This document shows positions 10,257 to 58,254 of a DNA stretch of 64,000 nt, piece after piece. The DNA is from Naegleria gruberi (lineage: Eukaryota), in assembly GCA_000004985.1 (NCBI GenBank), contig GG738933.1, one strand, 5' to 3'. The position numbers and the translations under genes are program-made. Position 1 is the stretch's first letter. The number at the start of each line of letters is the position of its first letter. Below the pieces are notes generated by a model, which was given only the letters and a program-made list of their open reading frames with translations, was not told the DNA's origin and searched no databases.

Positions 10257-10493
10257 ATTGATGACTTTGAATTTCTCATTAGATCATTTTACTGTTTGAA
10301 CTAAGCGCTTGGATTGATTGGGAAAATAATAATTAGCCAGACATGTAATGAAGTATTTGAAAAAGCTACTTTAAGAAAGTTAGACGAAACTTGTACATTC
10401 TAAAATAGGAAAAACACTTGACAATTCAAACGCTTCTTTGATATTTAAACAATCACATGTGGGAAGAACCAACAACATCATTATCAAAAAAAA

Positions 10494-12773: not shown

Positions 12774-12964
12774 GTGTCCATGTGGAATGAGCTGTGATTT
12801 TGAGCTGAAGATATTGTTATTGTTGTGAAAAGTTCAAGAATGGGAACTATGAAAGAGCCTATTAAGTAAATTGCGGAGCGATAGAGGAGAAGATATTCTT
12901 AATAGATCCTGATGAATAAGATTTTCAGGAAATGCTAGAAATTGAGATCCAACTGTGAAATTTT

Positions 12965-28540: not shown

Positions 28541-31210
28541 TTAGAATTTGAATGGAACAACAGTTTTGTTACTATAAGTCTTGATAGGTAATTGAGGATA
28601 AAGTGTTAAATCTGTTGTTGAATCTCCTTCTTGTTCAATGACAAGTCGTTTAACTTTTAAAATTTTCAAATTAGTTTCCAAATCCGAAAGTGGAAATTCG
28701 TCTGATAATAGATCAAATAGTCTCTCCTTGGATATTCCTTTTTGAGTTGTTTCCTTCTTCTTAATTTTGTAAATAGTTTGAATTATTCTAGTTTCGATTA
28801 AATTTTCCACAAAATTCGAATTCCTATATTCGTAATCCAGATAGGCATCTTGATACTTTTCATAACAATTCAATCGTTTCAAACATGATAGACAGAGCGT
28901 ATTAGTACTTGGATTAAAATTATCTTTTGTAATTTCCTTATTTTCCAAATATTGAATAATAAAATGTCCATTACAATCATTAATTATTCTTTGTTTCCTT
29001 AATAGTAAAGAATTGAATGGAGAATAAAAGTAAGTAGAACAGTATTGGCAGCGTACAATGCTAAATTTGCAAACTAAATGTCCATATGAATATTTAGATT
29101 TCACAAGATTTTGATTTTCTGGTAGAATTTGAAATAAATCTGAAGGTCTTTTCATAAATTCATATTCGTCAAGTTTCAATCGTTTGAGAATATCTGCTTC
29201 TGCTTCTGCTTCTTGTTCTGGTTCAAAGTTAAGAGATTGGTTACATTTTCTGCGTGATTGTTCCTTGACAGTAAATAGAATGCCATTTGTCAAACATTTT
29301 TCCACAAATTGAAAGGAAACACTCTTCAATACGACAGGATAAAGCAAATTGGATTCATCTATATCTTTCGAATTGTAGGCGTCTGGAATATATCCTTCAT
29401 TACCCTTCACAAATAATTCAACCAATGGATTATTTCCCATTATGATACCTTCAGTTTGAATTCGGTTTGCATATTTATCAATGAGTGACTTTCGAATTCT
29501 TTCCACAATAAAATCACAATGCATTGCGTGAAAGAGAGGATGAAAGGAATCAGCAACAATGGTTAAGAAACCTCTTTTTCCATATTTCAAAGCTCTTTCG
29601 TGGTGGACTTCACTGGTTCCTCCTGATTCTCTATTGATGAAATTAATCTTATACTTGAGAGATCGCAAACATTCCAAAACTGTCAATATTCTCTCGCCAT
29701 CATACACAAGTTTACAACAATCCAAATCAAAAAATAAAAGTAACTCCTCAATGGTCTCATAGTTCAGTAATACTATTTGAATATTTGCATTTCCTTCTTG
29801 GCAAATATTAATAGAAGCTTTGGAGCTCATCATATTGTACTTTAAATGTGAGGTTTTCTCTTCCAATTTCAATAAAACTTGTTTGATTGCTTGACTGATA
29901 ACCTCTGCCGATTCTCCATTATTAATGACAAATAAATCAAAATCACTGAAACCACAACCTGTCAATGTGTGAAGTAGAGATCCTCCTGAAATGACAAAAC
30001 GTTCTCTTGTCTTGGTAGTTTTGTTATGTTCAAATGCACATTCATAGAATAAAATTCTAGCCAATTCGTAATCTTTCAAAATTTCATTCTTGAATCGATG
30101 TTGAAAATCTGAAAATGTCATTTCATATGGATTCTTGAAAAATCTCACAATTCTTTCACATTTTGTGGCATTTGGACTTGTTTCTTTATCCATATAATAA
30201 TGATAATCACGAGCACGGTTGTTAAATTCGTATGAATATTCCAACATATTTGGAAGGATTACACAATCTACTTTTGGCAACCCAGAAACCACATTATACC
30301 ATGGTTTTTTATCAAAGTTCATAAATGAGCATCTTCTCTTGACCAATTCATCGAAAGTGAGATAATAAGTGTCTGGTTGAGTAAATATTCCATAGGGAAA
30401 TACTGGAATGGCTTCTTCCTGTATTTTAATAATCTCTTCAAATTCCTTATTCGAAAAAATTTTCGCCTCCTCAATGGCCTGTGAATTGATCGCATCAATC
30501 ATTGGATCTCCCACCTTAAATGTTCTAAATTTCAAATGGTCATGAAAATACCTCACTGGCCACTTGACAGTACTCTTCATCCTAAAATATTGATCATAGG
30601 TCATCATGACATTCTCATTCGAATCCTGATGATAAACTAAACTCTCATTCCAACACGGTTCTCGTACCGTATTGGAGAATAAATCCACCAATCGATTCAC
30701 ATTCCTAATATCCCTTCTCTTATTGAGAATATCAATTCTTAATCTTTCAATACTTTCTCCATAAACTCGATCAAACAAATCATAAACTCCACGACAAGTC
30801 TGAATGAAATTAAACAATGCATACTTGTCCATATAAAACATCAAATCGAGTAGAATTTCAGATGGAAGTAATTTGATTAAATTTCGATTCGGATTTTGAA
30901 ATTCTCTCAAAACATTTTGTCCATTATTTTCAACAAGTGAATTTTCATGACGATTTCCTGACCATGAATAAATATCTCGTTGTTTTCTTCTCTTTTCGTA
31001 TCTATCACAAAAGTATGGATTTACAAGATTTTTAGAGGAAATTGATTCGGGTTGAATTTGATCGAATGTGAAAGTTGTGAATTCGTCGTTTTGGTTAGTG
31101 TCGAAACTTGGAACTAACAAGGCAACGGGTTGAGGTCCTCGAGGAGAATCGTAAAAGTTATTGGAAAGTGTGGCAGTTTCTAATAGAATATCATCCCATG
31201 ATCGTTTCAT
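28541..31210 (-). CDS. F-box protein with a Pol-beta-type nucleotidyltransferase-like core and a C-terminal Cys-rich (CxxC...CxxC) region, 889 aa
   Basis: F-box-like LPSEILLDLMFYMDKYALFNFIQTCRGVYDL. NTase signature FVISGGSLLHTLTGCGFSDFDLFVIN (GS-x11-DxD) followed by LLFFDLDCCKL. C-terminal VRCQYCSTY...LCLSCLKRLNC. Confidence 0.65.
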   Translation of the reverse strand: MKRSWDDILLETATLSNNFYDSPRGPQPVALLVPSFDTNQNDEFTTFTFDQIQPESISSKNLVNPYFCDRYEKRRKQRDIYSWSGNRHENSLVENNGQNVLREFQNPNRNLIKLLPSEILLDLMFYMDKYALFNFIQTCRGVYDLFDRVYGESIERLRIDILNKRRDIRNVNRLVDLFSNTVREPCWNESLVYHQDSNENVMMTYDQYFRMKSTVKWPVRYFHDHLKFRTFKVGDPMIDAINSQAIEEAKIFSNKEFEEIIKIQEEAIPVFPYGIFTQPDTYYLTFDELVKRRCSFMNFDKKPWYNVVSGLPKVDCVILPNMLEYSYEFNNRARDYHYYMDKETSPNATKCERIVRFFKNPYEMTFSDFQHRFKNEILKDYELARILFYECAFEHNKTTKTRERFVISGGSLLHTLTGCGFSDFDLFVINNGESAEVISQAIKQVLLKLEEKTSHLKYNMMSSKASINICQEGNANIQIVLLNYETIEELLLFFDLDCCKLVYDGERILTVLECLRSLKYKINFINRESGGTSEVHHERALKYGKRGFLTIVADSFHPLFHAMHCDFIVERIRKSLIDKYANRIQTEGIIMGNNPLVELFVKGNEGYIPDAYNSKDIDESNLLYPVVLKSVSFQFVEKCLTNGILFTVKEQSRRKCNQSLNFEPEQEAEAEADILKRLKLDEYEFMKRPSDLFQILPENQNLVKSKYSYGHLVCKFSIVRCQYCSTYFYSPFNSLLLRKQRIINDCNGHFIIQYLENKEITKDNFNPSTNTLCLSCLKRLNCYEKYQDAYLDYEYRNSNFVENLIETRIIQTIYKIKKKETTQKGISKERLFDLLSDEFPLSDLETNLKILKVKRLVIEQEGDSTTDLTLYPQLPIKTYSNKTVVPFKF

Positions 31211-31957
31211 TTTTTTGGTTGACCAAAGATTGCAAGGATGGTGAGGAAATTAATAACTATCTTTTGCACGAAATTGTAACCTTTCTAATAAACTTTCGAA
31301 TAACAAATCATGCTAAAACTTTCTTCAACATTCTAACCAATACTAAAGCACCACCTCTTCATTATTTCCTTCCGATAATTTCTACCATCACAGACATTAT
31401 TTTTCTGTCAAACTTCAATTTATTCGATATCTTTCGTTCACACAAAATGTTCCCGCATCAATTAAACAATAAAAACATCCTTTTCCACCAAATAAACAAA
31501 ACCGGGAACGAAATCTACTTCCAAAACCATTTATTGAGCTTTAGTTTTTAGTAGTATTAGAACTTGGACCAACACTAAAGGTCAGTTTATTCACATTTTT
31601 CGAAAACCAACTTTCACAACAAAACACATCTGCATCCATTATGATGATGCCGTAGTACCATCAAACTTGTCAACCGCCACTTGTCAAAAATGCTCAAACA
31701 AGCAAAGAAGGGGTAACAAACAATGTTTTCAAGGCTTTGACCAAATTTCATTCATTTAGCAAACCATTTCTTTAGAATGTAACCAGATTCGACAAAGTTT
31801 GGGAAAGGAGGTATTAAAGAGCACAACAAATGAATCTGAAAGGGCCATTTTTCGAAAGGTTATCCGAAACTTGAAACACAAAACAGCAAGAAATCAATAG
31901 ATGTCATAACACAATTTAACAACAATTATTCACTTTCAAAAAAAACAAAACAACAAT

Positions 31958-33200
31958 ATGAAATCAATCTTTTTAACTGTCCTTCTCCTTGTACTTTCGT
32001 TTAGTTTCGTCCACTCACAAGTTTACGTTACTGAAAAGTATACATCTGCTGTCGATGCTGCCATCAAAACATTAGTCAACGATGTTGATTTCCAAGCAAT
32101 GATGCTCAATTTGACCTATACCCCAGTTCCAGTTTGTGGTGATGACTATGCCTATCCATCCACAAATCCAATTGCCTCTGGAAAGACTGTTTGGAATATG
32201 TGTTATCAAGAAGCTGAATATATTACCTATCCTTGGGGTTACATTTATGAGTAAGTAGAATAGTTTCGGATAATTGTGTTCGAAACCTGTAACAGATATG
32301 TCGGTAATGGTATTGTTAAAAATATCAATAAGCAATATGGACTCGCTCTGACTGCCAAATTCTTTTCTATCAATACTACTGATGGTTTCTTTGAATCACT
32401 GAAGGCTGCTGTTGATAGTGGAAAATGTGACGTTGTCGTTGCTGATGGTAAGTTTGTGAAATTTTCAACAACAGATAGATTTTCTAATTTATTCAAATGA
32501 TGATTTGATTATTTAACTGACACTGATTTCATATTCACATTAATTTTACAATATATTGTTTATAACATTATAATTATTACAAAACATTGTACACACAAAA
32601 ACAGTTACTCCATCAACTGAAAGAACTACAAAGGTTCACTTCCAAGGTTGTCAATACGGAGCTGTTTCTGATGCCTATCTCCGTGGACCATTGGCCAGTA
32701 ATCTCACAATTAACAGACACACTGATTTGAATCGTACTGGAATTATCGTTGCCGTCTATCAGGGAACCACTCACGAAGAATATGCTCGTGCCAATTTCCA
32801 AGCTGCTACCATTCTTGCTGTTTCCTATGATGATGCTTTCTTATATGTTGCCAATAGTAAGGCCCATGCTATGATTGGTAATTTGTTGGATGTTAATGCT
32901 TGGCTTTCTAATAATCCAGGTGTTTGTAAATCTTGTAGTGTTAAGGTTTGTAATATATTTGAAGCAAATTGTGTTTCTGACCATTTTTATATATTAATTA
33001 ATGATGATATCATATCAAAATGAATTATTTGAATTGTGTAATTATTTGGTGGAATTATAATAATATAGACATATGGTGCTCCAAGTCCTTTCGGAAGTTT
33101 CACAACAGCATATATCATTTCGAGTGGATCTGCATTGACCATGAATTGGCTCATGATTGGTTTGTCATTCATTGCCACAATGATTGCCTTCCTCTTGTAA
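31958..33200 (+). CDS. secreted solute-binding-protein family 3 / glutamate-receptor ligand-binding-like protein with a GPI-anchor-like C-terminus. 4 exons: 31958..32250, 32296..32447, 32605..32945, 33069..33200
   Basis: signal peptide MKSIFLTVLLLVLSFSFVHS. FFESLKAAVDSGKCDVVVADG resembles the SBP_bac_3 motif ALQSGKIDVIISGMT. Introns GTAAGTAG..TAACAG (45 nt), GTAAGTTT..AAACAG (157 nt), GTTTGT..ATATAG (123 nt). C-terminal SSGSALTMNWLMIGLSFIATMIAFLL is a hydrophobic tail. Confidence 0.7.
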
Positions 33201-33458
33201 AACAAATCATTCTGCTGCAACGGATTTAAATTCGACTTGTCTCAAAAACTAAATATTGAGATAAAAATTTTGTAAAATCTATTTAATTTATAACTTTTTC
33301 CACATTTTTGTTTTTTTTGCTAGAAGATAATTTGATGATTTAAATATTATGAACTTTACAATATTTAAATAGTTATTGTAAAAATATTTAATAATTTCGG
33401 ACAACAATAATCCAAAGAGGAGATGACAATGAGACGTGCACATTGACCAACACAAAAA

Positions 33459-36343
33459 ATGTCCACTAGTGATGGCATAATGTCATCATCATCATCTTCC
33501 ACTCCTAACAACAATCTTTCCCTCATCACCACAAACAACATCAACCCCAACAACAATACCATCCCTAGTACCATTTCCAATAATAACAATACCATCAATG
33601 CATCTTCTTCTTCATCTCCACTGCAATTCTCTCCTTCCAATGCTTCATCTTCATATTTCCCGCGCACTCATTCTCAAACTCTTCTTGAACAACAGCAAGA
33701 ACAATCATTAAAAAGAATACAAACGAGTGGTGTTGCTGCTACCGGGCAAGGAAATAGTAGAAATTCTTTAGAGGGTGGTGTGTTTGCCAAGACTACGAGC
33801 AATAGCAGTAGTAATAGTCTGAGTGAGCAGAGTACTATTGGAAGTTTGAGTACGAGTGGTAGTTGTTATGGAGGAAGACAATCATTGGAAGGAATTCAAT
33901 ATCAACAAACAATTATGAATAATAATAGTAATAACATGAATAATAGTGTAAATAATAATAGCAATAATAATAATATGAATATGAATAATAATTCTAGTGT
34001 GGAAGGAGAGAGAAGGTCCATCACTCTCAAAAGGCAAAATAGTAATAATAATAATAACAAGGATGATGAAAATATATCAAATTCAATTTCATTGGATAGG
34101 ATTGTTGATAATGATACTCATCATGGTCATCATCATCATGTAGATTTTCATATTGATGATGATACACATCATCATTTTGAAAATCCCTTGCTCATGATGA
34201 GTAAGATGAATTCAATGCCGAGTATTGAGAGCAATCTTTCGAGGGTAGCTTCATCAGTACCTCTCAATGCTGGATATCATTCCGACATCGATTCTGTGGA
34301 GGAACCACACAAAACAAGCCATCCTGCTCAATTCTTTGATCAACAATGTTTTATGGAATGGAAGAGTATCACCTTTCCGATGGGATCTCCAAAGCCAATT
34401 TTGAAGAATATTAATGGCTTTGTTGCTCCAGGTAAATTGACTGCAATTTTAGGACCTATGGGTATGTTTTGGGTTGTGAAAATTAATTATCAATTTATAA
34501 CAATATCAATGAATTTCAAATATTCATCACAAAAATAATTAATTACAAAGGAAGTGGAAAATCGACACTACTGAGAATTTTATCTGGACGAGGAGCTAGG
34601 ATTTATAGTGGAGATATTTATATTAATGGACAACTTGCAATGAATAGTGAGAAACAGTTCATTCGTATTGACTCTGGTCGATTCAAATCCCTAGTTTCCT
34701 TTGTGGCTAAAGATTTTACACCTTCTAACATGTCTCTAACTGTTAAGGAAATTTTACAATTTGCTGTGAGACTGAAATTGCCATCCAAATCTCAAAATCC
34801 ACTTTGGACAACAAGAGACGATCGTCTGGCATTACTATTATCGAGTTATGGATTGAGAGGTAAGGAACATAGTCTTTATTCTTCTCTCTCCTCTGGAGAA
34901 AAGAGAAGACTTACTATTGCCGTGCAGAATGTTCTCTTCCATAGAATTGTCTTGTTGGAATATCCTACAGAGTTTATGGAATTTGGTGAATCATTCCTAT
35001 TATTGAAAAGAATGAAAAAATTGGCTGATTTGGGAGTTTCTATTGTTGTATGTTTGCACAAACCTTCAGTGCAAGAGATTGAAATTTTTGATTACGTATC
35101 AATTTTGAATAAGGGAAGACAATTATATTTTGGTAGACCTACAGAGATTGTCACCTATTTTAATACAATTGGAGTGAGATTTCCTCATGATAGACAAAAC
35201 ACAATAGCAGCTGTTTTGGAGCTATTGCTGCTGAGTGACATGTACAATTCGAACAATGAGGATGATAAAAAGTATGCAATCAGACACATGACCGAAACCG
35301 AGCTAAAGAGGGTCGACACTCTCGATAAGGAGTATGAAGAAAAGCTGGATGAATATTACATCCCTCAAAAACATAGGGAAGAATTGCCATACTTACAAAA
35401 TACCATAGAATCCATTCAAACAGAAAAGTACTATTCGAACTATTGGTTTTCAATACTGATTCTGTTACAAAGAATTTACACTGTCAAGTTTAGAAATTGG
35501 AAGACTGAAATATTGTCACCATTATTGGAAAAGGTTATTATTTCAGTAGTAATTGGAATTCTCTTCCTTCAAATCGATCCAACTAATATGAGTATGAAGG
35601 GTAAAATATTCTCCTTCTTGAATTTGAATATTTCGCTCACTTTTGGTCTTGGATTGAAAACACTTGTTGGACAAATACCCAACCTAATGCAGGAACGAAA
35701 TTCGACCAGCTATCGGGTTAGTGCATTTTTTATTGCAAAATCTATTGAGGATACTATTGATTTTACCGTTTATCCAACAGTATTTGGAATTATAGTTTAT
35801 TTCATGTGTGGATTGGACTATGATCCAGGAAGAGTTTTCAGTTTCATCCTGATTTTTGCTCTGTTCAATTTGACTTCAATGAGTGTTGCTCAAGCTCTCG
35901 TCTCTCTAATTCCTGTCCCTTCATTCTTGAACTTTATTTCACCTGTAATCAGTTTGGTATTTATTCTCCTCTCTTCTGCTTATGGTATTACTAAGACTGA
36001 TTATATAACTTGGATGGGATACTTCTCGTACCTGTATTACGCTTTCAGAGCATTGGCAATCAATGAATTCAAAGGAGATATCATTGACATTCCACCAAAT
36101 CAGAATGGAACAATTATCATTCCATCAGGTCAATACACCAATGGCACTCTCTTCTTGGAAAAGGCATATGGAATTACTGAACCATACTACATGATGTGGA
36201 TTTATACAGCCATTCTCTTCTTGTACTTTATTTTTTGTAAGATATTGGCATATATTGGATTGAGATTTGTCTATGGAAAGAAATCACCCAAGAGAACATT
36301 GAAGAATATTCTCTCCCATTTCAAGACTTGTTGTAAAAAATAA
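33459..36343 (+). CDS. ABCG (White)-type half-transporter, NBD then TMD, with a long N/S/H-rich N-terminal extension. 2 exons: 33459..34461 and 34551..36343
   Basis: Walker A GPMG|SGKST is split by an 89-nt GTATGT..ACAAAG intron. ABC signature LSGGEKRRLTIA. Six hydrophobic TM segments of the ABC2 type follow. Walker B, D-loop and H-loop are degenerate (see findings). Confidence 0.85.
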
Positions 36344-36400
36344 ATATTTCTTTCTTCAACAGGAATTAATTCCCGCCAAATACTGAAAAAAAATACCAAA

Positions 36401-38656
36401 ATGCAATCAGAGCCTTTAACGTATCAATTTTTTAATCAGTGCATTGATCTGCGGAGGGAGGATGATAAATTCTTCATGATTGATCTTTCCGATGCCGATA
36501 ATATTGTTAAACGATTGGTCTTTAATATTATTGACAATAATGTGGAGACTGGATATTCGGTTGAACATTTGGTGTGGGATTGGGAGAGTGATTTGATGAA
36601 TCAATTGTTGGATGGAACGAAGAGACCTATCAGAGCTTCTGCTAGGTATATAACCATGAAGAATAGATGTTGTTCTGGAGAGTATTGTCATTTCATGTGG
36701 AATGGTGTCGAAACATTTGATGAAATGTTACTTTCTCCAGTGCCAAAAGCTAATGAGAAGGGATCTGCATTTGTTGGTGATGGTGAATTATTGATGATTT
36801 CCACAAGTGAAGTTCCATTTATTGAGAGAGGAAAGAGCAAAATTTTCACAATGGAGAAATGTACTGAGGTGCCAAGTGTCACATATAACACGACTGATTT
36901 TTGCACTGTTATTACCATTCCATGCAGTAATGTTTTGGAACGAGATTATTCATTGACTGCCTTTTATGCAAGTTCAAATGTTTTTTTATTTGATTTGAAG
37001 AGTGACAAGTTTTCAACTACACCAATTCAATTCATTCATCCAGACAATTTATTTTACTTTAAAGAGGCATTTATTGAATCATGCATTGTTCCATACTTGG
37101 AGGGGAGTAGAATGAGAGTTTTTGTTTGCCAAAAAGAAAGATTATTTGAATTAGTTTGGTCTGGAGAGGAATTTAAAAGTCCACTACAAATGATTAGACA
37201 TTTAGAATTTGTCCAATCAGTGTTTTCTATTACAAGGATGGACAATATTGGTCTTTTAGTTAGATCTAAAGATATTAATCAGAAAATTCAATATCATATC
37301 TATGAACCAGAACTATACAACTCCAATCAATCTCAGAAGGAAGGTATTTGGAGATTTATCACAAATGTTGATGGAAATCTCTCCTCATATCTGTATGCTC
37401 CAAAATCAAAATCACTTGTCTATAGGAAGGGCATTGAGTATACCAAATATTTATCGTTTGAGGAAATTATGAAAATGCCTTCTAATAGAATTAGAGAAGT
37501 TTTTGATGAAGAGAATTTTGAAAAATTCAAAGAATACGATGCCTCATTTAATGTTTACACACCACGTTGTAAAAGTAAAGCCATTGAAAAGGTTACCTTT
37601 GTTAAACCAAACCAGAGAATCAATGAGGCCTATCAAATCAAATTAGAACATATAGACCATATTGAAATAGTTGCAGGAATTAATTGTAAGGAGTTTGCGG
37701 AGAAACTTGGACAATTTATTTCAAAGGACTATGTGGAATTGACTCCAACAGACTTGGCTGATTATCTTGGAGCTCCATTAGTCTACCTCCATAAATGGGG
37801 AGGAAATAATTTAAGTCATGAATACTTTATTAGAGACATGCAATATCACAAAAGAACTAGCTCAGTTATTGAGCTAGGTAAATGTTTAAATGGGGGACTA
37901 GGAGGAAGTACAACAGACATTTCAAATCTCACATTCCTTGGAATCGTACAAGGTAAGCCATTTGATAGTTCTGAGGAGGATAATGCAGTTGAAGAAGAAG
38001 AAGAAGCTGAATATCAACAATTGTTTAAAAATACGCAATTTCGAATGGAGTCCAATACAATGCTCGCTACTGATCCCTTCCTTTCGGATGGTGGCGTTTA
38101 TTTTGAAAATGTAAGGGAAGGTCTGTGGCAATGGAATACCACAAACAAGCAACAGGGTTATTGTGATGGCGGATATTTCGACCCTAATGTTACTGCTCAA
38201 TTTGTTGCTGTACACACTGATTATTTGCATCTACTCAATACATCAAATATTTGGCTAATACCCAAAGATAGAACTGAAGAGTATGGTGGTGAGTATAACA
38301 GAAATGAATACCTTAATTATGAGATGGAGGGAGGATGGTTCCAAATGAGGTTGGGTGTTTCCTCAGATTGTGCAGTTGTTGGTCTATTTGACCAAAAGTA
38401 TTTTAATGATGAGAATGTTTTACCTGCCAGTAAGGTTAGACAAAAAAGTCTTCTCGAAGCTAATTTCAAGTTATGCTATGAACCTCCATACCAAGAATAT
38501 CTCACAAAGAAAATGGAGGAAGAAGGATTTCCTGATAAAATGGAAATGCCTTATGGTATCATTACATCATCAGGTTATGGAGATGGCTATTATCCAACAT
38601 TGTTCAAAAAATCAGAGAAGGGAGATGTGATTGCTGTCAAGATATTCTTTGCTTAA
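36401..38656 (+). CDS. hypothetical protein, 751 aa; starts only 58 bp after the ABCG stop on the same strand
   Basis: accaaaATG start; long clean ORF; no recognisable domain. Confidence 0.6.
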   Translation: MQSEPLTYQFFNQCIDLRREDDKFFMIDLSDADNIVKRLVFNIIDNNVETGYSVEHLVWDWESDLMNQLLDGTKRPIRASARYITMKNRCCSGEYCHFMWNGVETFDEMLLSPVPKANEKGSAFVGDGELLMISTSEVPFIERGKSKIFTMEKCTEVPSVTYNTTDFCTVITIPCSNVLERDYSLTAFYASSNVFLFDLKSDKFSTTPIQFIHPDNLFYFKEAFIESCIVPYLEGSRMRVFVCQKERLFELVWSGEEFKSPLQMIRHLEFVQSVFSITRMDNIGLLVRSKDINQKIQYHIYEPELYNSNQSQKEGIWRFITNVDGNLSSYLYAPKSKSLVYRKGIEYTKYLSFEEIMKMPSNRIREVFDEENFEKFKEYDASFNVYTPRCKSKAIEKVTFVKPNQRINEAYQIKLEHIDHIEIVAGINCKEFAEKLGQFISKDYVELTPTDLADYLGAPLVYLHKWGGNNLSHEYFIRDMQYHKRTSSVIELGKCLNGGLGGSTTDISNLTFLGIVQGKPFDSSEEDNAVEEEEEAEYQQLFKNTQFRMESNTMLATDPFLSDGGVYFENVREGLWQWNTTNKQQGYCDGGYFDPNVTAQFVAVHTDYLHLLNTSNIWLIPKDRTEEYGGEYNRNEYLNYEMEGGWFQMRLGVSSDCAVVGLFDQKYFNDENVLPASKVRQKSLLEANFKLCYEPPYQEYLTKKMEEEGFPDKMEMPYGIITSSGYGDGYYPTLFKKSEKGDVIAVKIFFA

Positions 38657-38874
38657 TTTCAAATTTCACAAACCATATGATTTAACCATTTGATGAAATG
38701 GATATGAACTAACCTCTCTTTTGTTGTGGTCATTTCACCGATTCACTGATTCACACCCTCATGGCTGCAAAACAAATGGTCGCTCCACATCTTTAAAACC
38801 AAGCATGATCTAACCATCATTAAATTCCATAACAAAAAAAACAAATTTAATTCCCCAACAAAATAATCATCAAC

Positions 38875-39033
38875 AATGGCAAAGTGTGATTGGTGTTCGT
38901 TCAATGCTTCAACATTGTCTTCAATTAGCTGCAAGAATGGTTGCTCACACAAGGTTTGTCCTGGATGCAAGAGTTCTCCATCTGGAAAGGTCGGATTGAA
39001 ATGTCCAACTTGTGGTAAGCCAGCTGGTTGGTA
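38875..39033 (+). CDS. candidate small Cys-rich (zinc-ribbon-like) protein, 52 aa: MAKCDWCSFNASTLSSISCKNGCSHKVCPGCKSSPSGKVGLKCPTCGKPAGW
   Basis: not in the ORF track (<60 aa). ATG in aacaATGgca context. Eight Cys arranged CxxC, CxxxC, CxxC, CxxC. An overlapping 102-aa minus-strand ORF (38743..39051) is the alternative reading. Confidence 0.3.
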
Positions 39034-39060
39034 AAAGTGATTCCTGCCCATTTCGTCTAT

Positions 39061-39240
39061 TTGATATTGAACTATTTGATATCATTCACAACATGAAATG
39101 TTTAATTTCTTCCACAAACTTGTAAATAAAATTTAATACATTATCCACAATTGATATTGAGCTATTATCAAAATTATTCAAAACATGAAATGTTTTATTT
39201 TCTTCCACAAACTAAGTAAAAATTACCCCAAATTCAATAC
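39061..39240. repeat. imperfect tandem duplication of a roughly 90-bp unit in the convergent 3' region between the small Cys-rich ORF and the SBP-like paralog
   Basis: ttgatattgaactatttgatatcattcacaacatgaaatgtttaatttcttccacaaact.. (39061..) versus ttgatattgagctattatcaaaattattcaaaacatgaaatgttttattttcttccacaaact.. (39151..). Confidence 0.5.
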
Positions 39241-40311
39241 AAATGAAACAATGAATATAATCATAGAAATAAAGGTCAACTGAACATTCCACTCAAACGA
39301 AGCATTTCCTCCAGAAGTTCCAGTAATATTCATAGTGATAAAAGTTCCAAATTGAGTTGAATCTCCAAAGAATGAAACCCTACATCCCTGACAAATATTT
39401 CTATTATTTCCAAGCCAAATAAACAAATCCAAAACATCAGCAATATAGGCATGGACAGTTCTATTCGAAACCATGGCCCATGCATCATCGTAACCACCAA
39501 TGACCTTGATAGTTGCCTTTTTAAAGGTGTTTTTCACGAAATTCTCATAGGAAGTATCAGCAGAAACGACAATAATAACTCCAGTGTTATCCAAATCTTC
39601 AATATTTTTGAAAATTAGAGTTTCGTTTTGGAGTTCACTTCTGAGCCAACCTTGATAACTAGTTCCATAAGCACCTGTGATAATTATGATAAAATATAAC
39701 AAATTTAGGTCAATCAAGTAGTAGTGAAAGTGAATTATTAACATGAATTTCACATTCATCCAAAAAAGGAAATGAATATCATATTAGAAACAAACCGAAA
39801 CTTTTTGAAACCTACATTGAAAATGAGCCTGTGCCAATCTTTCTGCATTCCAATTCGTTGCTCCCACAATCACATCACACTCTCCACTATCCACTCCCTT
39901 CTTCATAGTTGCAAAATATCCATTATCTGTTGGAAAGGTCTTGTAAACAGGATTCAATATTGGAATGTTATATTGTTTCTTGATGGTATCCAACAGGAAA
40001 ACACCTGAAGCTTTGTGGATTGTTATCCATGGCTCAAAAGCTTCGTAATCATAACAGAGATTCATAAAAGTTCTGTTAAAATCAAAAGTTTTAGGGAAAT
40101 CAAGTTTTTGGCAGGTTGGGATTTTGACAAAGATGTTGTTTTTGGCGAGGACGTCTTGCCATTCTTTGGTTGCTACGTATTGACTAGTGGCAGCATCAAT
40201 GACATCTGCAAAGTTTTTTGATACCTGACAGGTTATGAAATGATGAAGAGAAATAAGTAACAGTAGTGAAGAGACCACTAGTAAAGTGAGACTTTGAAAT
40301 CTTGGTTTCAT
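39223..40311 (-). CDS. paralog of the 31958 gene: secreted SBP-family-3-like protein with a hydrophobic C-terminal tail. 2 exons (40311..about 39816, about 39674..39223); the intron of about 141 nt has an ambiguous exact junction
   Basis: signal peptide MKPRFQSLTLLVVSSLLLLISLHHFITC. KKGVDSGECDVIVGATNWNAERL matches the SBP_bac_3 core. The C-terminal half aligns with the paralog (FGTFITMNITGTSGGNASFEWNVQLTF versus FGSFTTAYIISSGSALTMNWLMIGLSF). Candidate donor T|GTAGGT and acceptor tatcacAG|GT put a Cys at the conserved position. Confidence 0.65.
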
Positions 40312-41380
40312 GATTTTTTTTTCTGTTTGATTGGACCTGTCATGTCTACGATGATAATCATTGATTAGTGGCAGGTAGGGTGACTGGTTTTAAGTTGTTC
40401 CATAGCGAGTGTGCCCTTGGCTATTATTGAAAATAGTTTTACATCAATTAAAATGTATTTGAATATCATAACAAAGTTTCTAATATGGAATACTTTCTCC
40501 ATTTCACAGCCACAGCAAAATTTTACCCGCCAATTTGAATGACATCTTTTTTGTGTTCACTTCTTACTGTAATTCATCTGTGTTTCATCTCAACATCCTA
40601 AATCCTAATCATCTTATTTTGAACCAGCACACTATGTTTCGTCTCCTTTCCCTTAATATATGCGAACTAAACTTTTGGAAACCTGTCTTTCTGATGCTTT
40701 CTCCTCTTACGCTCATCAAACAGTGAAGGTGAATCATCTTCAGTTTGAGTTTCGTCTGTAAACAACTAAACTAATCTGCGGACTATGAAAATAGATGAAA
40801 AGATTGATGAAGTCTGTTATCTTTGAAACAGTTGAAGAAAAATAATGACCGTTCGAATGCTACCTTTAGAACTTGGCACCACATTCAGTTTCTCAGTTTC
40901 GAATAAATTTTATTGGACTACTAATTCGAATTGATTTGAGAATCATCATCTTAATGGATTCCGTTCAACATCAAATCGTTTTAACAGAACATCCTAAACC
41001 ACTCCATTCTTAGGCTAACTATCTTATTTGAAACAGCATGAATCTGTCACCATTCAACTTTATGTCATCCTTCATTTGAACGTATGGTAAGATTTTCACC
41101 AAAACACACATCTCCTTGCACTATCCTTTCAAGTGTCTCCTTTCCATTCTCAGAAATTAAAAATCCTTTCACTGCAGAATTTCAAAAACTTGAAAAAACT
41201 CGACAGTAAAAAATATTCAAAAAAAACACACAAACACCTGCAGCATCAACTTTGCTATCTTTGTTTTCCCTCCAAAATTTTCCCTCGCAAATTGTAGTTT
41301 TTTCAAGCCTTTCTTCTAATTTAATTGAGTTAAAGAACATCATTATCATCGAGAAGGCTTTTTAAAAGAAGAGAAGAAGG

Positions 41381-43714
41381 ATGTTTCTATCGGCAGCTGA
41401 AGGAAAATCGAGTAGTAAATCGGCTTCTCATGGTTCTCTTCATAATCAAGGTGGTAATAATAATAATGGAGGAGTAGTTGCCATGTCGAAATTAACTGTA
41501 ATGAATTCTTCACGTGGTTTGGGATTATTATCCTCCTCGAAACGATCTTCGAGTTATGGTGATGAATTTTACAGACAATACGATCAGGATTCGAATAATT
41601 CGAATAATTTAATGATAACAACGACCACGACAAGTAATGTAGTTCCTGGATCTCCGAATATGAAGGGTAGTGTTGGAGTTGGAGGATTGTATTATGCAAA
41701 TTCTGTTTTGAATAATAATTTTGAATGGAGCTACAAAGTGGAGACACAGAAGGATGGTAGGAAACGGGCCAATAGTTTCAAAGATTTGTGTTTCATGTTA
41801 CCGCTGCTTTCAATCATTAATACAAGTGCTTTCAATGTGGTGATGCAAAATGCTGGTCAACTGTTAGGAACAAATTCCGAAAATGGAAATATTTATACCA
41901 ATGACAAAAGTTTATTTACAGTTTATCACCAAATAGATCGAGAGTTATCAAAATCATTAACTGGTGATGCTGTAAGTCCTGCAACATCTTCTCCTATCAA
42001 TGCCATTTTGATGCCGAATTCACCAGGCAGTTCACAAGATGTGTTGAGTGATTGCAATTCTGACTTGGTATTGTCGATACCAAATAGTCCTTCATCAGGT
42101 TCCTTACATCTCTATATGGAATCTCAACAAAAACAGCACTCACCAAGTGAATCTAACAGTAATATTCTAAATTTGAGAGAGAAATTCATTCTTTTCATTG
42201 TAAATAATCACCCAAACCATTTAGGAAAACAATTTACCATGCATGCACACTTGAAAGAAGGTATAAGTGGTAAACAGTTGGCAGAAGTCTCTGTAAGAAC
42301 CAAGCTCATGTTTCTCGACTTGTTTTATGGTTGCAGTAGAGTACATGCCAAGAAGCCAATTCAAAACTGTACAGATATTGTAGTATTGCTAGAGCAATTA
42401 ACATACAATTTAGTTAGAACGAGTGGGGATGTAATTCTCGAAGAAATGGACATTGACATGATGAATCATATGGTTGAACAACAAACTTCATTGCCCTATT
42501 ATAGACACATGTCTGAGGCAAAGAATTTCGACTGTGTGCAAAACGAAAGATTGAAAAACTTCCTAAACAATACTTTTTCCCGAATTTTCAAATCACCAGA
42601 CGAATCAGAAAATCAAGATTCCATTTTTGCAGAACTTCTTTTAGAAATACGTTACATTTCTGATATGATTTATTTGGAAATGGAAGACATTTATTCAATC
42701 TTTCAATCTATTGCACCATTCAAAGAAGCTGTAGAAGAATTTCTTGGCAAAGGAATTCAAGAAAATACACTTCCAATGCACATTGTTCAAATGTATAAGA
42801 AGAAACTAGAGGAAGAGAAAGCTTTCCAAACTGAAAAGAACCATCTCCTCTTAAGGGATCAAGATTTTCAAGCAAAGAACATTATCGACAAGGATTGGAA
42901 TTTGGTAAAGCACCTTTCGAGAGGACATGCCACCGATTGGAAGGTAGTTCACTCCCAAAGCCACAACGAATATAAGAAGAAACATTTGAAATCGCAAAAC
43001 AATGATGAACAATTAATTAACCTATTCCCATACTCAATGATAGTGTACAATACCAAGCGACCATATCATACTGGAATAGATAGCAAGGATCTCAAGTCTA
43101 GTAAGATGGTTACAACTTTGGATTATTCGATTGAACAAGTGGCTAAAACATTTGGTCATGATTATGCTCTATCTGAAGAATTTTCAGAAGTGGAATTCAC
43201 TGAATTCATTCCTCTCAATGAATCAAACTCACTACACAAATACCCTAGTTTTACCTTCAATGCCTCTGTTGAACTTGGATCCTCAAGTAAGAAGAAGAAA
43301 ATGGAAGGAATCCTCTCTACCAAAATCTCCCTTGTAAATACACCAGGTAGAGGAAACGAATTGAATGAAATATGCTTTGTCTACAAGTCGTGTCAGGCCT
43401 CCTCGAATAAGAAGGAATCCATTATCATTTGGTGTGCCAGAGTTTTCACTAGAATCGACAATCATAGAACGAGACTATTCCAATTCAAGCTTTCGAATAT
43501 TGGATCACTTTCATCCTCATTCCTCTCCTCCTCTAAGGCATTCCTTAAAAAGAATATATCTGAAGACCATTCTCGTATTCTAAAAGAATTACAATCAGCT
43601 GAAAAGGATGAATTCCCAACTCCATCCGAATCAAATCACATCATGAGAACAATGCGAGATTATTGCCTGCATTATCACAACACGGAACTCAAAGATTTAA
43701 TTCGAAACAATTGA
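41381..43714 (+). CDS. hypothetical protein, 777 aa, N/S-rich N-terminus
   Basis: long clean ORF with ATG start; no domain recognised. Confidence 0.6.
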   Translation: MFLSAAEGKSSSKSASHGSLHNQGGNNNNGGVVAMSKLTVMNSSRGLGLLSSSKRSSSYGDEFYRQYDQDSNNSNNLMITTTTTSNVVPGSPNMKGSVGVGGLYYANSVLNNNFEWSYKVETQKDGRKRANSFKDLCFMLPLLSIINTSAFNVVMQNAGQLLGTNSENGNIYTNDKSLFTVYHQIDRELSKSLTGDAVSPATSSPINAILMPNSPGSSQDVLSDCNSDLVLSIPNSPSSGSLHLYMESQQKQHSPSESNSNILNLREKFILFIVNNHPNHLGKQFTMHAHLKEGISGKQLAEVSVRTKLMFLDLFYGCSRVHAKKPIQNCTDIVVLLEQLTYNLVRTSGDVILEEMDIDMMNHMVEQQTSLPYYRHMSEAKNFDCVQNERLKNFLNNTFSRIFKSPDESENQDSIFAELLLEIRYISDMIYLEMEDIYSIFQSIAPFKEAVEEFLGKGIQENTLPMHIVQMYKKKLEEEKAFQTEKNHLLLRDQDFQAKNIIDKDWNLVKHLSRGHATDWKVVHSQSHNEYKKKHLKSQNNDEQLINLFPYSMIVYNTKRPYHTGIDSKDLKSSKMVTTLDYSIEQVAKTFGHDYALSEEFSEVEFTEFIPLNESNSLHKYPSFTFNASVELGSSSKKKKMEGILSTKISLVNTPGRGNELNEICFVYKSCQASSNKKESIIIWCARVFTRIDNHRTRLFQFKLSNIGSLSSSFLSSSKAFLKKNISEDHSRILKELQSAEKDEFPTPSESNHIMRTMRDYCLHYHNTELKDLIRNN

Positions 43715-48189: not shown

Positions 48190-48499
48190 TCTCTTTATCC
48201 TCCAACCTATTTAGTTTAATAGTAGCAGTACAACAACACAATAACAAGCCTGGAAATTACATGAGCGGCAAGGAGAACTAGCCGTTGCTTATTTTTGTTT
48301 GTTTTTTTATTAAAATTTTTTTAAATTCAAAAAAAATATCAGTACAATTGTCTTCCACTTCTTCGTCTCTTGATTGTCAACATGTATTAGCTTACTAGAA
48401 GAAGTTTGCAGATTGGGATGTACTTTTGACATGATTCTCTTGTTGGAATTTTACCTTCTCAATTTTGATGTTTGTTGTTATCATCAAGATGGCAAATAA

Positions 48500-53559: not shown

Positions 53560-53651
53560 ACTGTGGGCAGTGCCATTTATGCGTTGTTCCAACCATATGT
53601 TCTAATAAAGATTTAGATTGATCAGAACTAATCTATCCTAAACTTTAAAAA

Positions 53652-57895: not shown

Positions 57896-58254
57896 TTTTT
57901 TTTTGAGAGTTGTTGTTTTTGATTTTGGAGAATTAGTAGAATTGCTTTAAAAGGAAATTTATAAAATATCAAATTACTTGATTTGGTAGAGTCTACAATT
58001 AGAATGAGAATATCAAAACCCAGTTTGTTTAAGGGTCCCTAGAGAGCGACGCTTATCTTCCTCACTTTAATGAATTTATCAAGTGTTGACAGAATTTCTT
58101 TAAATGTCAGTTATTTTTTTTGACAATTATGGAGAATCTTATGAGCTATGATATTCTTATTATGAAATACATAATATTGCTCATTAAAGAACTTGAGATT
58201 TTTGTAACCAAGTTCACAGTCAACTCAAAAACAAAAATTATCAAAAAAAAAAAA

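What the first reader, a model, noticed from the sequence alone, without database searches (positions are those of the whole stretch)
31958..40311. Inverted pair of paralogous secreted solute-binding-protein-like genes flanking an ABCG half-transporter
The 31958..33200 (+) and 39223..40311 (-) products are clear paralogs. Both have a signal peptide, a bacterial SBP-family-3 / iGluR ligand-binding-like core (..D.GKCDVVVADG.. / ..DSGECDVIVGATNWN..) and a hydrophobic GPI-signal-like tail. They sit in opposite orientation about 6 kb apart. Between them lie an ABCG-type transporter (33459..36343), a 751-aa unknown protein that starts 58 bp after the ABC stop (36401..38656), and a candidate 52-aa Cys-rich peptide (38875..39033). 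Co-localisation of SBP-like receptors with an ABC transporter resembles prokaryotic importer logic. In a eukaryote it may instead mark a locally duplicated sensing/transport module.
Basis: partly seen in the sequence, partly recalled or inferred. Interest (0 to 1): 0.6.

Follow-up and report, generated by a model that had tools for sequence, protein, structure and literature searches.

The report
Surface-tethered permuted amino-acid-binding proteins, Naegleria
Two Naegleria gruberi genes flanking an ABC transporter encode secreted, probably lipid-anchored relatives of bacterial amino-acid-binding proteins whose chain order is rearranged; they belong to an undescribed amoeba gene family, and nothing shows that they feed the neighbouring transporter.

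Summary
The window is Naegleria gruberi. NAEGRDRAFT_76040 (31958-33200, +, 4 exons, 305 aa) and 76043 (39223-40311, -, 2 exons, 315 aa) are paralogues (32% identity, E 2e-47). Each has a signal peptide, six conserved Cys and a C-terminal GPI-type signal. Between them lie an ABCG half-transporter, a DUF4241 protein and an unannotated 52-aa Cys-rich ORF.

New here:
- The domain is circularly permuted: the canonical C-terminal helices sit at the N-terminus.
- The genes belong to a multigene family found in several heteroloboseans (three Naegleria species, Willaertia, strain BB2).
- Ligand-anchoring Arg/Thr/Asp are conserved and pocket residues vary, which fits surface-tethered amino-acid-type binders.

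The importer-module reading fails. ABCG has the exporter architecture with degenerate ATPase motifs. Its orthologues in N. lovaniensis and N. fowleri have no SBP-like gene in the DNA available. The two SBP genes are old paralogues, not a local duplication.

One lead remains open: SBP-like genes abut ABC transporters of three subfamilies in three species.

The parts
31958..33200 (+). SBP-like gene A (NAEGRDRAFT_76040), 305 aa. Exons 31958-32250, 32296-32447, 32605-32945, 33069-33200.
31958..32017 (+). Signal peptide of A (MKSIFLTVLLLVLSFSFVHS | QVY).
   Evidence: Read from the sequence: basic n-region, 14-residue hydrophobic core, V-H-S before the predicted cleavage site. No predictor was run.
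32027..32125 (+). N-terminal two-helix segment of A (aa 24-56). It is homologous to the C-terminal helices of canonical family-3 SBPs and marks the circular permutation.
   Evidence: A profile of 27 such segments hits PDB amino-acid SBPs only at their C-terminal ends. Re-permuted profiles and sequences align collinearly to the end of the SBPs and of the Pfam model. The model shows helices at 26-40 and 43-53.
32622..32624 (+). Codon of Arg155 in A, in the ...TPSTER motif. It is equivalent to the alpha-carboxylate-binding Arg of GlnBP/HisJ.
   Evidence: Invariant in the 21-sequence alignment. Arg in 71 of 73 representatives. It aligns with the ...TITPER Arg of AncCDT-1.
33120..33197 (+). GPI-type C-terminal signal of A: SSGSA small-residue cluster, short spacer, then the 17-residue hydrophobic end WLMIGLSFIATMIAFLL with no cytoplasmic tail.
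   Evidence: Tail analysis of the family: 19 of 21 sequences share this design on reading the tails. Inferred from sequence only.
33459..36343 (+). ABCG-type half-transporter, 931 aa. Exons 33459-34461 and 34551-36343. It has a 290-aa Asn/Ser/His-rich N-terminal extension.
   Evidence: ABC_tran plus ABC2_membrane. Nearest non-Naegleria relatives are ABCG2-like. Q-loop Gln is Lys, Walker B Asp is Glu, catalytic Glu is Tyr, and the D-loop is altered; all this is conserved in the orthologues.
36401..38656 (+). 751-aa protein with a C-terminal DUF4241 domain, starting 57 nt after the ABCG stop.
   Evidence: Pfam DUF4241 E 8.5e-23 at aa 547-747. No PDB relative by sequence. No relative found next to the ABCG orthologues.
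38876..39034 (+). Unannotated 52-aa Cys-rich ORF (8 Cys, 1 His; CxxC...CPxC pattern), a possible small zinc-ribbon-like protein.
   Evidence: GC 44% against 33% for the whole 38657-39222 intergenic interval (which contains the ORF), and an A-rich start context like the neighbouring genes. Only weak zinc-finger-like matches. This exact sequence is not in the protein collection. Status unproven.
39223..40311 (-). SBP-like gene B (NAEGRDRAFT_76043), 315 aa. Exons 40311-39816 and 39674-39223.
   Evidence: Splice model. Same 90% cluster as XP_002669055.1. The AF2 model from a shallow alignment (pLDDT 67.7) has the same order of secondary-structure elements and hits AncQR at E 4e-9.
39226..39321 (-). 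GPI-type C-terminal signal of B: TSGGNAS cluster, spacer, then the hydrophobic end LTFISMIIFIVSFVLNLG.
   Evidence: Inferred from sequence only.

Best explanation
The two genes are old paralogues of a heterolobosean multigene family. Each encodes a single, circularly permuted family-3 solute-binding (Venus-flytrap) domain.

Predicted route and fold: the protein enters the secretory pathway through an N-terminal signal peptide and is probably stabilised by up to three disulfides (six conserved Cys). The hydrophobic C-terminal signal is most likely exchanged for a GPI anchor directly after the last beta-strand of lobe 1. The two helices that close a canonical SBP at its C-terminus are encoded at the N-terminus instead. 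This frees the C-terminus for the anchor.

Predicted ligand binding: the cleft keeps the residues that clamp the alpha-carboxylate and alpha-ammonium groups of an amino acid (Arg155, Thr/Ser203, and Asp at the position of A-Asn241 / B-Asp245). The side-chain pocket positions vary between paralogues. The most likely mechanism is therefore a set of cell-surface, lipid-tethered binders. Each would close on a different amino acid or similar small carboxylate outside the amoeba, for sensing through an unknown transmembrane partner or for capture and endocytic uptake.

Status of the steps: shown here are the fold, the permutation, the residue conservation, the family distribution and the gene models. 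Inferred are GPI anchoring, surface location, ligand class and any downstream signalling or uptake.

The ABCG gene between the two is an independent neighbour. It belongs to a Naegleria-specific ABCG clade with degenerate ATPase motifs and is not an SBP-dependent importer.
For: Homology and fold:
- A+B profile versus PDB, E 8.5e-8.
- 21-sequence family profile versus PDB, E 8e-22 to AncCDT-1, 3.5e-16 to AncQR and about 1e-8 to GlnBP.
- AF2 model of A, pLDDT 91.7.
- Foldseek E about 1e-12 to Trp-, Arg- and Gln-binding proteins.
- The B model hits the same proteins.

Permutation:
- The N-terminal segment profile matches nine SBPs, each only at its C-terminal helices.
- The re-permuted family profile aligns in one stretch to within a few residues of the SBP C-termini, whereas the native profile stops at about residue 170-200.
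- Family member P0075 scores 62.8 bits in two stretches when native, and 68.7 bits in one stretch covering Pfam positions 10-131 of 132 when re-permuted.

Ligand residues over about 70 representatives: Arg 71/73, Thr/Ser 68/72, Asp/Glu 61/70. Positions 148-150 are variable.

Secretion and anchor: signal peptides, 4-5 N-glycosylation sequons, six Cys each conserved in at least 90% of representatives, and C-terminal hydrophobic tails with 0-3 trailing residues and upstream small-residue clusters in 19 of 21 sequences on reading the tails.

Family distribution: 205 cluster representatives at E<1e-3. Every named one is from N. gruberi, N. lovaniensis, N. fowleri, Willaertia magna or Heterolobosea sp. 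BB2; the BB2 member is a transcript.

Precedent: a GPI-anchored flytrap protein in another amoeba, EhVFT, affects motility and phagocytosis (PMC12965686).
Against: - No experiment shows GPI attachment, surface location or any ligand.
- No GPI predictor was available, and I did not check whether Naegleria has the GPI transamidase.
- A itself has Asn instead of the ammonium-binding Asp (3 of 70 representatives do), so A may bind something other than an alpha-amino acid.
- Cyclohexadienyl dehydratases, which are enzymes derived from this fold, are among the top hits, and I did not map their catalytic residues.
- A conserved cleft does not exclude a mainly structural or coat role.
- The repeated adjacency to ABC genes is not explained by this model.
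Confidence: 0.6

Rival explanations
1. SBP-ABC functional module. The SBP-like proteins work with the adjacent ABC transporter. They would either deliver substrate to it, as in bacterial importers, or act as extracellular acceptors of what it exports.
For: Gene A lies 258 bp upstream of the ABCG gene on the same strand. In N. lovaniensis the SBP-like gene P0004 lies 385 bp upstream of a 1526-aa ABC_membrane x2 transporter. In Willaertia magna a complete ABCB half-transporter lies directly upstream of an SBP-like gene, and the two were merged into one gene model, P0016. Rough Poisson estimate for three such adjacencies in a family of about 40 genes: P about 0.0007-0.015.
Against: - The three transporters belong to three different subfamilies. 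All have exporter-type architectures, and none has the BPD_transp_1 permease that family-3 SBPs dock on (established knowledge; domain content).
- The orthologues of this ABCG in N. lovaniensis and N. fowleri have no SBP-like gene in the DNA available.
- Five other SBP-like loci have no ABC gene within 10 kb.
- Two of the three positive cases were found because of the ABC gene, so the sample is biased. In the unbiased sample only 1 of about 7 genes is adjacent (P about 0.03-0.07).
Confidence: 0.08
2. Surface coat or variable-antigen family. The proteins mainly form a protective or adhesive GPI-anchored coat, and the flytrap fold is only a scaffold.
For: Large, fast-diverging multigene family (30-40% identity between paralogues). 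Predicted GPI signals and glycosylation sites. Some environmental members carry Thr/Ser-rich stalks or Cys-rich extensions (P0122, P0082, P0092).
Against: The ligand-clamping Arg, Thr/Ser and Asp are kept in 87-97% of representatives across very divergent members. A pure scaffold would not need this.
Confidence: 0.12
3. Secreted or surface enzyme derived from the SBP fold, such as a cyclohexadienyl/arogenate dehydratase-like activity.
For: Cyclohexadienyl dehydratases and their reconstructed ancestors are among the best sequence and fold matches.
Confidence: 0.04
4. Type I membrane proteins rather than GPI-anchored ones. The C-terminal hydrophobic stretch would be a permanent transmembrane anchor.
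For: AF2 draws the tail as a 24-residue helix. No GPI predictor or experiment was available.
Against: The tails are 14-21 residues long and end the protein with 0-3 residues after them, with no basic cytoplasmic stop-transfer segment. Each is preceded 8-12 residues upstream by Ser/Gly/Ala/Asn clusters, in 19 of 21 sequences on reading the tails.
Confidence: 0.12

Closest known systems
Bacterial polar amino-acid-binding proteins of SBP family 3 (GlnBP, HisJ/LAO, ArtJ, ArgBP; reconstructed AncQR and AncCDT-1)
   Different: Circularly permuted, with the C-terminal helices moved to the N-terminus. Six conserved Cys. Eukaryotic signal peptide, N-glycosylation sequons and a GPI-type tail. No cognate importer permease nearby. 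Single sequences fall below the Pfam threshold.
Ligand-binding domains of ionotropic glutamate receptors, including bacterial GluR0
   Different: No channel is inserted between the two lobes, and the only membrane segment is the C-terminal tail. Sequence is closer to bacterial SBPs (E 1e-22) than to NMDA LBDs (E 4e-4).
EhVFT of Entamoeba histolytica (GPI-anchored Venus-flytrap protein; PMC12965686)
   Same: A free-standing flytrap domain tethered to an amoeba surface by a GPI anchor instead of being fused to a receptor. In Entamoeba it affects motility and phagocytosis, and its ligand is unknown.
   Different: EhVFT is a type I PBP (ANF-receptor / class C GPCR-like), a different branch of the superfamily. 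It is described there as one protein rather than a large family, and it is from an unrelated supergroup.
PfVFT1 of Plasmodium falciparum (PDB 5jkq)
   Different: No identifiable membrane anchor, and reported as probably not GPI-anchored (PMC13199436). I did not examine it for permutation.
VFT sensor domains of BvgS/EvgS-type histidine kinases and tandem SBD arrays such as GlnPQ
   Different: Those domains are fused to transmembrane signalling or transport modules. The Naegleria proteins are single domains with only a lipid-anchor signal.
ABCG2 / White-type half-transporters (for the gene between the pair)
   Same: NBD-TMD order, ABC_tran plus ABC2_membrane, 23-26% identity to vertebrate ABCG2.
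   Different: Q-loop Gln is Lys, Walker B Asp is Glu, catalytic Glu is Tyr, and the D-loop is changed. The Walker B/catalytic change (LLEYPT) is shared by the orthologues and by the gruberi paralogues P0160/P0161. P0158/P0159 have LEDPT, and P0160/P0161 also alter Walker A and the signature motif. Long low-complexity N-terminus.

Membership tests
SBP family 3 (Pfam SBP_bac_3, PF00497) | The single sequence scores above the Pfam gathering threshold. | tested here: not met
   A scores 19.1 bits and B 15.9 bits against a cutoff of 26.4. Relatives in the same family do pass: P0075 62.8 and P0005 32.3.
SBP family 3 (Pfam SBP_bac_3, PF00497) | Profile-level homology to solved family-3 binding proteins. 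| tested here: met
   Family profile A2 versus PDB: E 8e-22 to AncCDT-1, with 73 hits at E<=0.01; the 60 shown are nearly all family-3 SBPs, their enzyme or sensor derivatives, or iGluR LBDs.
SBP family 3 (Pfam SBP_bac_3, PF00497) | Bilobed type II periplasmic-binding-protein fold. | tested here: met
SBP family 3 (Pfam SBP_bac_3, PF00497) | Canonical order of elements, ending in the two C-terminal helices on lobe 1. | tested here: not met
   These helices are encoded at the N-terminus. Shown by the segment profile and by the re-permutation tests. The domain is a circular permutant.
SBP family 3 (Pfam SBP_bac_3, PF00497) | Arg, Thr/Ser and Asp that bind the alpha-carboxylate and alpha-ammonium groups of amino-acid ligands. 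| tested here: met
   Arg 71/73, Thr/Ser 68/72, Asp/Glu 61/70 across representatives. B has all three; A has Asn at the Asp position.
Prokaryote-type SBP-dependent ABC importer | An importer-type permease (BPD_transp_1) and ATPase encoded with the SBP. | tested here: not met
   The only transporter in the interval is ABCG-type with ABC2_membrane. None of the window ORFs scanned with Pfam carries an importer permease domain; about seven smaller ORFs of 200-270 aa were not scanned. The rest of the genome could not be searched.
Prokaryote-type SBP-dependent ABC importer | SBP-transporter linkage kept in related genomes. | tested here: not met
   The ABCG orthologues in N. lovaniensis (L002) and N. 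fowleri (L003) have no SBP-like gene in the fetched DNA. Caveat: both lie 3-6 kb from a contig end.
GPI-anchored proteins | N-terminal signal peptide plus a C-terminal signal: small omega-region residues, a spacer, and a terminal hydrophobic stretch without a cytoplasmic tail. | tested here: met
   By rule-based inspection: in both genes and in 19 of 21 aligned sequences on reading the tails. No dedicated predictor was available.
GPI-anchored proteins | Demonstrated GPI attachment (PI-PLC release, anchor mass spectrometry) and presence of the transamidase in the organism. | not testable with these tools
   No experimental data were found. Literature searches gave nothing specific for Naegleria.
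ABCG half-transporters | NBD before TMD, with ABC_tran plus ABC2_membrane. | tested here: met
ABCG half-transporters | Canonical catalytic motifs: Q-loop Gln, Walker B Asp followed by the catalytic Glu, and the D-loop. | tested here: not met
   The window protein has VAKD, LLEYPT and FME in place of VVQD, FLDEPT and GLD. The LLEYPT form is conserved in its orthologues and in the paralogues P0160/P0161.
Ionotropic glutamate receptor | A ligand-binding domain split by an ion-channel module. | tested here: not met
   The domain is continuous, with no internal transmembrane segments.

The most novel reading that the evidence does not exclude
Heteroloboseans couple lipid-anchored, permuted solute-binding proteins to ABC transporters. 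The binding protein would be an extracellular donor or acceptor for the transporter encoded next to it. That would make it a eukaryotic counterpart of bacterial SBP-dependent transport, built on exporter-type ABC proteins, and would explain why SBP-like genes abut ABCG, ABCB and ABCB/C-type genes in three species.
Probability: 0.07. Interest if true: 0.85.

Novelty: new variant of a known kind. Interest (0 to 1): 0.5.

Why it matters
Free-standing bacterial-type amino-acid-binding domains are rare in eukaryotes, and I found no paper on this family. If the prediction holds, Naegleria and its relatives display a diversified set of lipid-tethered flytrap binders on their surface.

That would give concrete candidates for how these bacterivorous amoebae, including the brain-eating N. 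fowleri, detect or scavenge amino acids. It would also be a natural example of circular permutation that frees a terminus for membrane anchoring. Engineered glutamate sensors display the related GltI domain on cell surfaces (from memory, including GPI-anchored versions), so a natural counterpart would interest that field.

The proteins have no close animal homologue among the database hits. As predicted surface molecules they could also be diagnostic or antibody targets in N. fowleri.

The ABC adjacency, if it survives a genome-wide test, would be of wider interest.

Tried and rejected
- Word-indexed homologue search with protein A found nothing, not even A itself. The same search with the family alignment returned only 8 hits. 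The exhaustive HMMER search was what revealed the family.
- Exact look-ups of the DUF4241 ORF and of P0151 found no contig. The look-up of P0257 also failed.
- L001 (P0003) and L004 (P0004) were tested as syntenic orthologous loci and rejected. Only the SBP-like gene and weak RCC1-repeat matches are shared. The 890-aa gene upstream of N. fowleri P0005 is not related to the 889-aa gene upstream of A.
- Metagenome scans for more loci failed or found nothing.
- A bacterial/archaeal genome scan with P0097 (acidic, with an archaeal-looking tail and the N-terminal motif) returned only bacterial loci. Nearly all matched just the core, query residues about 70-305, and I did not check their domain order. 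So I could not establish a prokaryotic source for the permutation.
- The afdb50 fold library was unavailable.
- Rfam found no RNA gene in 31000-41500.
- Literature searches for the family, the locus tags, Naegleria with SBP_bac_3, and natural permutation of these proteins found nothing relevant.
- A recent inverted duplication was considered and rejected. Identity is 32%, intron positions differ (A is split after residue 148, B at the position equivalent to A residue 163/164), and each gene has closer relatives elsewhere.

Full report
**What is there.** The window is eukaryotic: GC about 34%, short GT..AG introns and Asn-rich low-complexity coding sequence. Exact protein look-ups identify it as a 99-kb scaffold of Naegleria gruberi.

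Gene A has four exons (31958-32250, 32296-32447, 32605-32945, 33069-33200, + strand) and encodes 305 aa. My spliced product is identical to XP_002669026.1 / NAEGRDRAFT_76040.

Gene B has two exons (40311-39816, 39674-39223, - strand) and encodes 315 aa. It clusters at 90% identity or more with XP_002669055.1 / NAEGRDRAFT_76043.

The two proteins align over 287 residues at 32% identity, E 2e-47. There is no third copy in the window.

Three features lie between them:
- an ABCG-type half-transporter (33459-34461 + 34551-36343, 931 aa);
- a 751-aa ORF with a C-terminal DUF4241 domain, starting 57 nt after the ABCG stop;
- a 52-aa Cys-rich ORF (38876-39034) that is not annotated.

**Is it a solute-binding protein?** Single-sequence Pfam matches to SBP_bac_3 are below the gathering score (19.1 and 15.9 bits against 26.4). 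Deeper methods settle the question:
- A profile of A plus B hits solved amino-acid-binding proteins at E 8.5e-8.
- A 21-sequence family profile hits them at E 8e-22. That list also contains AncQR, GlnBP, ArgBP, GluR0 and, more weakly, NMDA-receptor ligand-binding domains.
- An AlphaFold model of A built on the family alignment is confident (pLDDT 91.7, pTM 0.83).
- A weaker model of B (pLDDT 67.7, from only six sequences) has the same order of secondary-structure elements and finds the same proteins.

**The family.** An exhaustive HMMER search of 1.84 billion cluster representatives found 205 relatives at E<1e-3, 94 at E<1e-10 and 36 at E<1e-30. Every member that carries a name comes from N. 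gruberi, N. lovaniensis, N. fowleri, Willaertia magna or Heterolobosea sp. BB2. The BB2 member is a transcript, so at least one member is expressed. The rest are unnamed environmental sequences of the same design.

UniProt labels some members 'Solute-binding protein family 3/N-terminal domain-containing protein'; the others are 'predicted' or 'hypothetical' proteins. Full-text searches found no paper on the family, its locus tags, or Naegleria together with SBP_bac_3.

Members are about 300-340 aa. They share six Cys, each present in at least 90% of representatives, and near-invariant Pro67, Tyr112 and Arg155.

**Circular permutation.** The roughly 35 residues after the signal peptide form two helices (model helices 26-40 and 43-53). 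Their motif, clearest in distant members such as P0075 (LRTAISAALKEVMANSEWDTIYYKWFNES), is the signature that normally ends a family-3 binding protein. Three tests support a permutation:

1. A 40-position profile of 27 such N-terminal segments, searched against all PDB sequences, returned ten hits. Nine are amino-acid-binding proteins, and each is matched only at its extreme C-terminus. Examples: 5eyf 209-235 of 245 (E 5.5e-4), GlnPQ SBD 195-223 of 225, 4kpt 221-249 of 251.
2. I moved the segment behind the core in 15 family members and rebuilt the profile. Alignments to solved proteins then ran in a single stretch to within a few residues of their ends: 4zv1 58-229 of 233, 5eyf 75-234 of 245, 4i62 90-260 of 269. 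With the native profile they stop at about residue 170-200.
3. P0075 scores 62.8 bits in two stretches against Pfam SBP_bac_3 when native. Re-permuted, it scores 68.7 bits in one stretch covering profile positions 10-131 of 132.

A plausible origin is a tandem SBD array that was truncated at both ends; tandem-array proteins (P0103, P0105) are among the distant hits. This is inference. I could not find a permuted prokaryotic source.

**Secretion and anchoring.** Both proteins start with a typical signal peptide and have 4-5 N-glycosylation sequons. On reading the C-terminal tails of the 21 aligned sequences, 19 end in a hydrophobic stretch of about 14-21 residues. These tails have no charged cytoplasmic extension, at most a few trailing residues, and a cluster of Ser/Gly/Ala/Asn 8-12 residues upstream (SSGSA in A, TSGGNAS in B). 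The two exceptions are P0013, whose tail looks mispredicted, and P0095, which has a longer 28-residue uncharged run.

This is the textbook design of a GPI-attachment signal. It remains an inference: no predictor or experiment was available, and I did not verify the Naegleria GPI machinery.

**Likely ligand class.** Alignment to AncCDT-1 and related proteins places family Arg155 on the Arg of the ...TITPER motif. It places Thr203 on the GT(T/S) turn of lobe 2, and the Asp of ...HAxIxD... on the ammonium-binding Asp. The roles of these residues come from established knowledge of GlnBP and HisJ.

Across about 70 representatives these positions are Arg 71/73, Thr/Ser 68/72 and Asp/Glu 61/70. Positions 148-150, which line the side-chain pocket in the bacterial proteins, vary widely. 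B has all three anchors; A has Asn in place of the Asp.

This pattern, a conserved clamp with a variable pocket, is what one expects from a diversified set of amino-acid-type binders. It argues against a purely structural coat.

**The ABCG gene and the 'module'.** The transporter has the reverse (NBD-TMD) ABCG architecture with an ABC2_membrane domain, and its nearest non-Naegleria relatives are ABCG2-like. Family-3 binding proteins dock on type I importer permeases (BPD_transp_1). ABCG proteins have an unrelated exporter fold (established knowledge). None of the window ORFs I scanned has an importer permease domain.

The ATPase site is unusual. The Q-loop Gln is Lys, the Walker B Asp is Glu, the catalytic Glu is Tyr and the D-loop is altered. 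The LLEYPT form is conserved in the orthologues and in two N. gruberi paralogues (P0160, P0161). Another paralogue pair (P0158, P0159) has LEDPT. Weak hydrolysis or obligate heterodimerisation is therefore likely.

The clear orthologues in N. lovaniensis (60% identity) and N. fowleri (59%) have no SBP-like or DUF4241 gene in the 10 kb downstream, nor upstream to the contig end. The caveat is that only 3-6 kb exists upstream in those assemblies.

A and B are not a recent local duplication. A's nearest relatives are P0006, N. fowleri P0005 and N. lovaniensis P0009 (37-40% identity). B's are N. lovaniensis P0003 (41.5%), N. gruberi P0001, P0011 and N. lovaniensis P0004. A and B rank about eleventh in each other's lists, and their intron positions differ.

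N. lovaniensis also has an A-like gene (P0009) and a B-like gene (P0004) 11 kb apart with two unrelated genes between them, an S8 peptidase and a myosin. An old A-like/B-like pair may therefore be ancestral, while the intervening genes are not.

**An open lead.** In N. lovaniensis, P0004 is followed 385 bp downstream on the same strand by a 1526-aa ABC_membrane x2 transporter. In Willaertia magna a complete, canonical ABCB half-transporter sits directly upstream of an SBP-like gene, and the annotators merged the two into one model, P0016.

Together with the window, that makes three species and three ABC subfamilies. Five other loci show no ABC gene within 10 kb.

A rough Poisson estimate assumes 33-100 ABC genes among about 15,700 genes. 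The figure of 33 is from PMC9928731; the total gene count is from memory. It gives P about 0.0007-0.015 for three adjacencies in a family of about 40 genes. Two of the three cases were ascertained through the ABC gene, however. The unbiased sample (1 of about 7 genes) gives only P about 0.03-0.07. I treat this as suggestive and untested.

**Comparison with what is known.** In sequence and fold the proteins are relatives of bacterial polar-amino-acid-binding proteins. They fail two membership features: the single-sequence Pfam threshold and the canonical order of elements. They also lack the importer context.

Functionally, the nearest described case is EhVFT of Entamoeba, a GPI-anchored flytrap protein that affects motility and phagocytosis (PMC12965686). 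It belongs to the type I branch of the superfamily and is described as a single protein.

From memory, and not tested here: melanotransferrin is a GPI-anchored protein of the wider type II fold, and engineered glutamate sensors display the related GltI domain on GPI anchors.

**Verdict.** The importer-module interpretation is not supported.

What is new relative to the databases and the searchable literature is the circular permutation, the family-wide GPI-type design and the distribution across several heteroloboseans.

I rate it a new variant of a known kind, of moderate interest (0.5). Function is still inferred, and the one really surprising possibility, coupling to ABC transporters, has only weak support.

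Noticed in passing
window 33459-36343; also P0155, P0156, P0158-P0161: This ABCG and its Naegleria relatives form a clade with non-canonical ATPase motifs. The Q-loop reads VAKD, Walker B plus the catalytic residue reads LLEYPT (LEDPT in P0158/P0159), and the D-loop reads FME/GIE. Walker A is intact in the orthologue and P0158/P0159 groups, and the H-loop His is kept throughout. This suggests ATP binding with poor hydrolysis, or obligate heterodimers.
   Followed up: partly
window 36344-36400: Only 57 nt (GC 28%) separate the ABCG stop from the ATG of the 751-aa DUF4241 ORF. That leaves very little room for a terminator and a promoter. Either the real start is further downstream or the two genes share a transcript.
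   Followed up: no
window 38876-39034 (+): Unannotated 52-aa ORF with 8 Cys and 1 His in CxxC/CPxC pairs. GC is 44% against 33% for the surrounding intergenic interval, and the start context is A-rich like the neighbouring genes. It may be a small zinc-ribbon protein gene. Only weak zinc-finger-like matches were found.
   Followed up: partly
window 39093-39130 and 39184-39222: An imperfect direct repeat of about 40 bp (ACATGAAATGTTT.ATTT.CTTCCACAAACT...) lies just downstream of the stop codon of gene B. It looks like a duplicated 3' end or polyadenylation region.
   Followed up: no
window 17758-23123 (-): A LINE-like non-LTR retrotransposon. A 1241-aa ORF carries endonuclease, reverse transcriptase and RNase H domains, and a 545-aa ORF overlaps its start by 4 nt.
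   Followed up: no
window 1336-2331, 43854-45401, 45431-48247, 58120-59439; also 52282-55433: Four RCC1-repeat genes and two adjacent LRR genes lie in the same 64 kb, so the region is rich in repeat-protein families.
   Followed up: no
L005 10001-13229 (Willaertia magna JBEGDK010000064.1): Gene model P0016 (557 aa) merges a complete ABCB half-transporter (10001-11899, canonical Walker A, signature and Walker B) with a separate SBP-like gene (about 12200-13229). This looks like an annotation error.
   Followed up: yes
P0001 (N. gruberi NAEGRDRAFT_68554, 462 aa): The model contains one partial and one complete SBP-like unit that are nearly identical in sequence. It is either a very recent tandem duplication merged into one gene model or an assembly artefact.
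   Followed up: no
L009 5860-9293 and 10001-15603 (N. lovaniensis PYSW02000035.1): A tandem pair of SBP-like genes sits beside a TnpB/Fanzor-like gene (OrfB_IS605 plus Cas12f1-like_TNB, 359 aa) and a DDE_Tnp_4 transposase, and is followed by an S8 peptidase. An S8 peptidase also follows the SBP-like gene P0009 in L006, which suggests a duplicated SBP-peptidase block.
   Followed up: no
L010 11177-13515 (N. fowleri VFQX01000013.1): A 742-aa protein with a NIT (nitrate/nitrite-sensing) domain lies convergent to, and 160 bp from, the SBP-like gene P0010.
   Followed up: no
L002 and L003 (contig starts): The ABCG orthologues of N. lovaniensis and N. fowleri both lie within 3-6 kb of a contig end, and the P0004/P0009 locus lies 10-40 kb from one. 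These families may sit in subtelomeric or hard-to-assemble regions, which could by itself bring multigene families together.
   Followed up: no
P0097 (Logan contig, 336 aa): A very acidic relative with the same N-terminal placement of the helices. Its tail resembles an archaeal PGF-CTERM sorting signal (my reading; no sorting-signal model was run). It hints that the permutation also exists outside eukaryotes, but its source organism could not be identified.
   Followed up: partly
P0074, P0082, P0092, P0122 (environmental): Distant family members add other modules: two permuted domains in tandem (P0074), Cys/Pro-rich or Thr/Ser-rich stalks (P0082, P0122), and a 1013-aa protein with many Cys-rich, EGF-like-looking repeats, judged by eye (P0092).
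   Followed up: no
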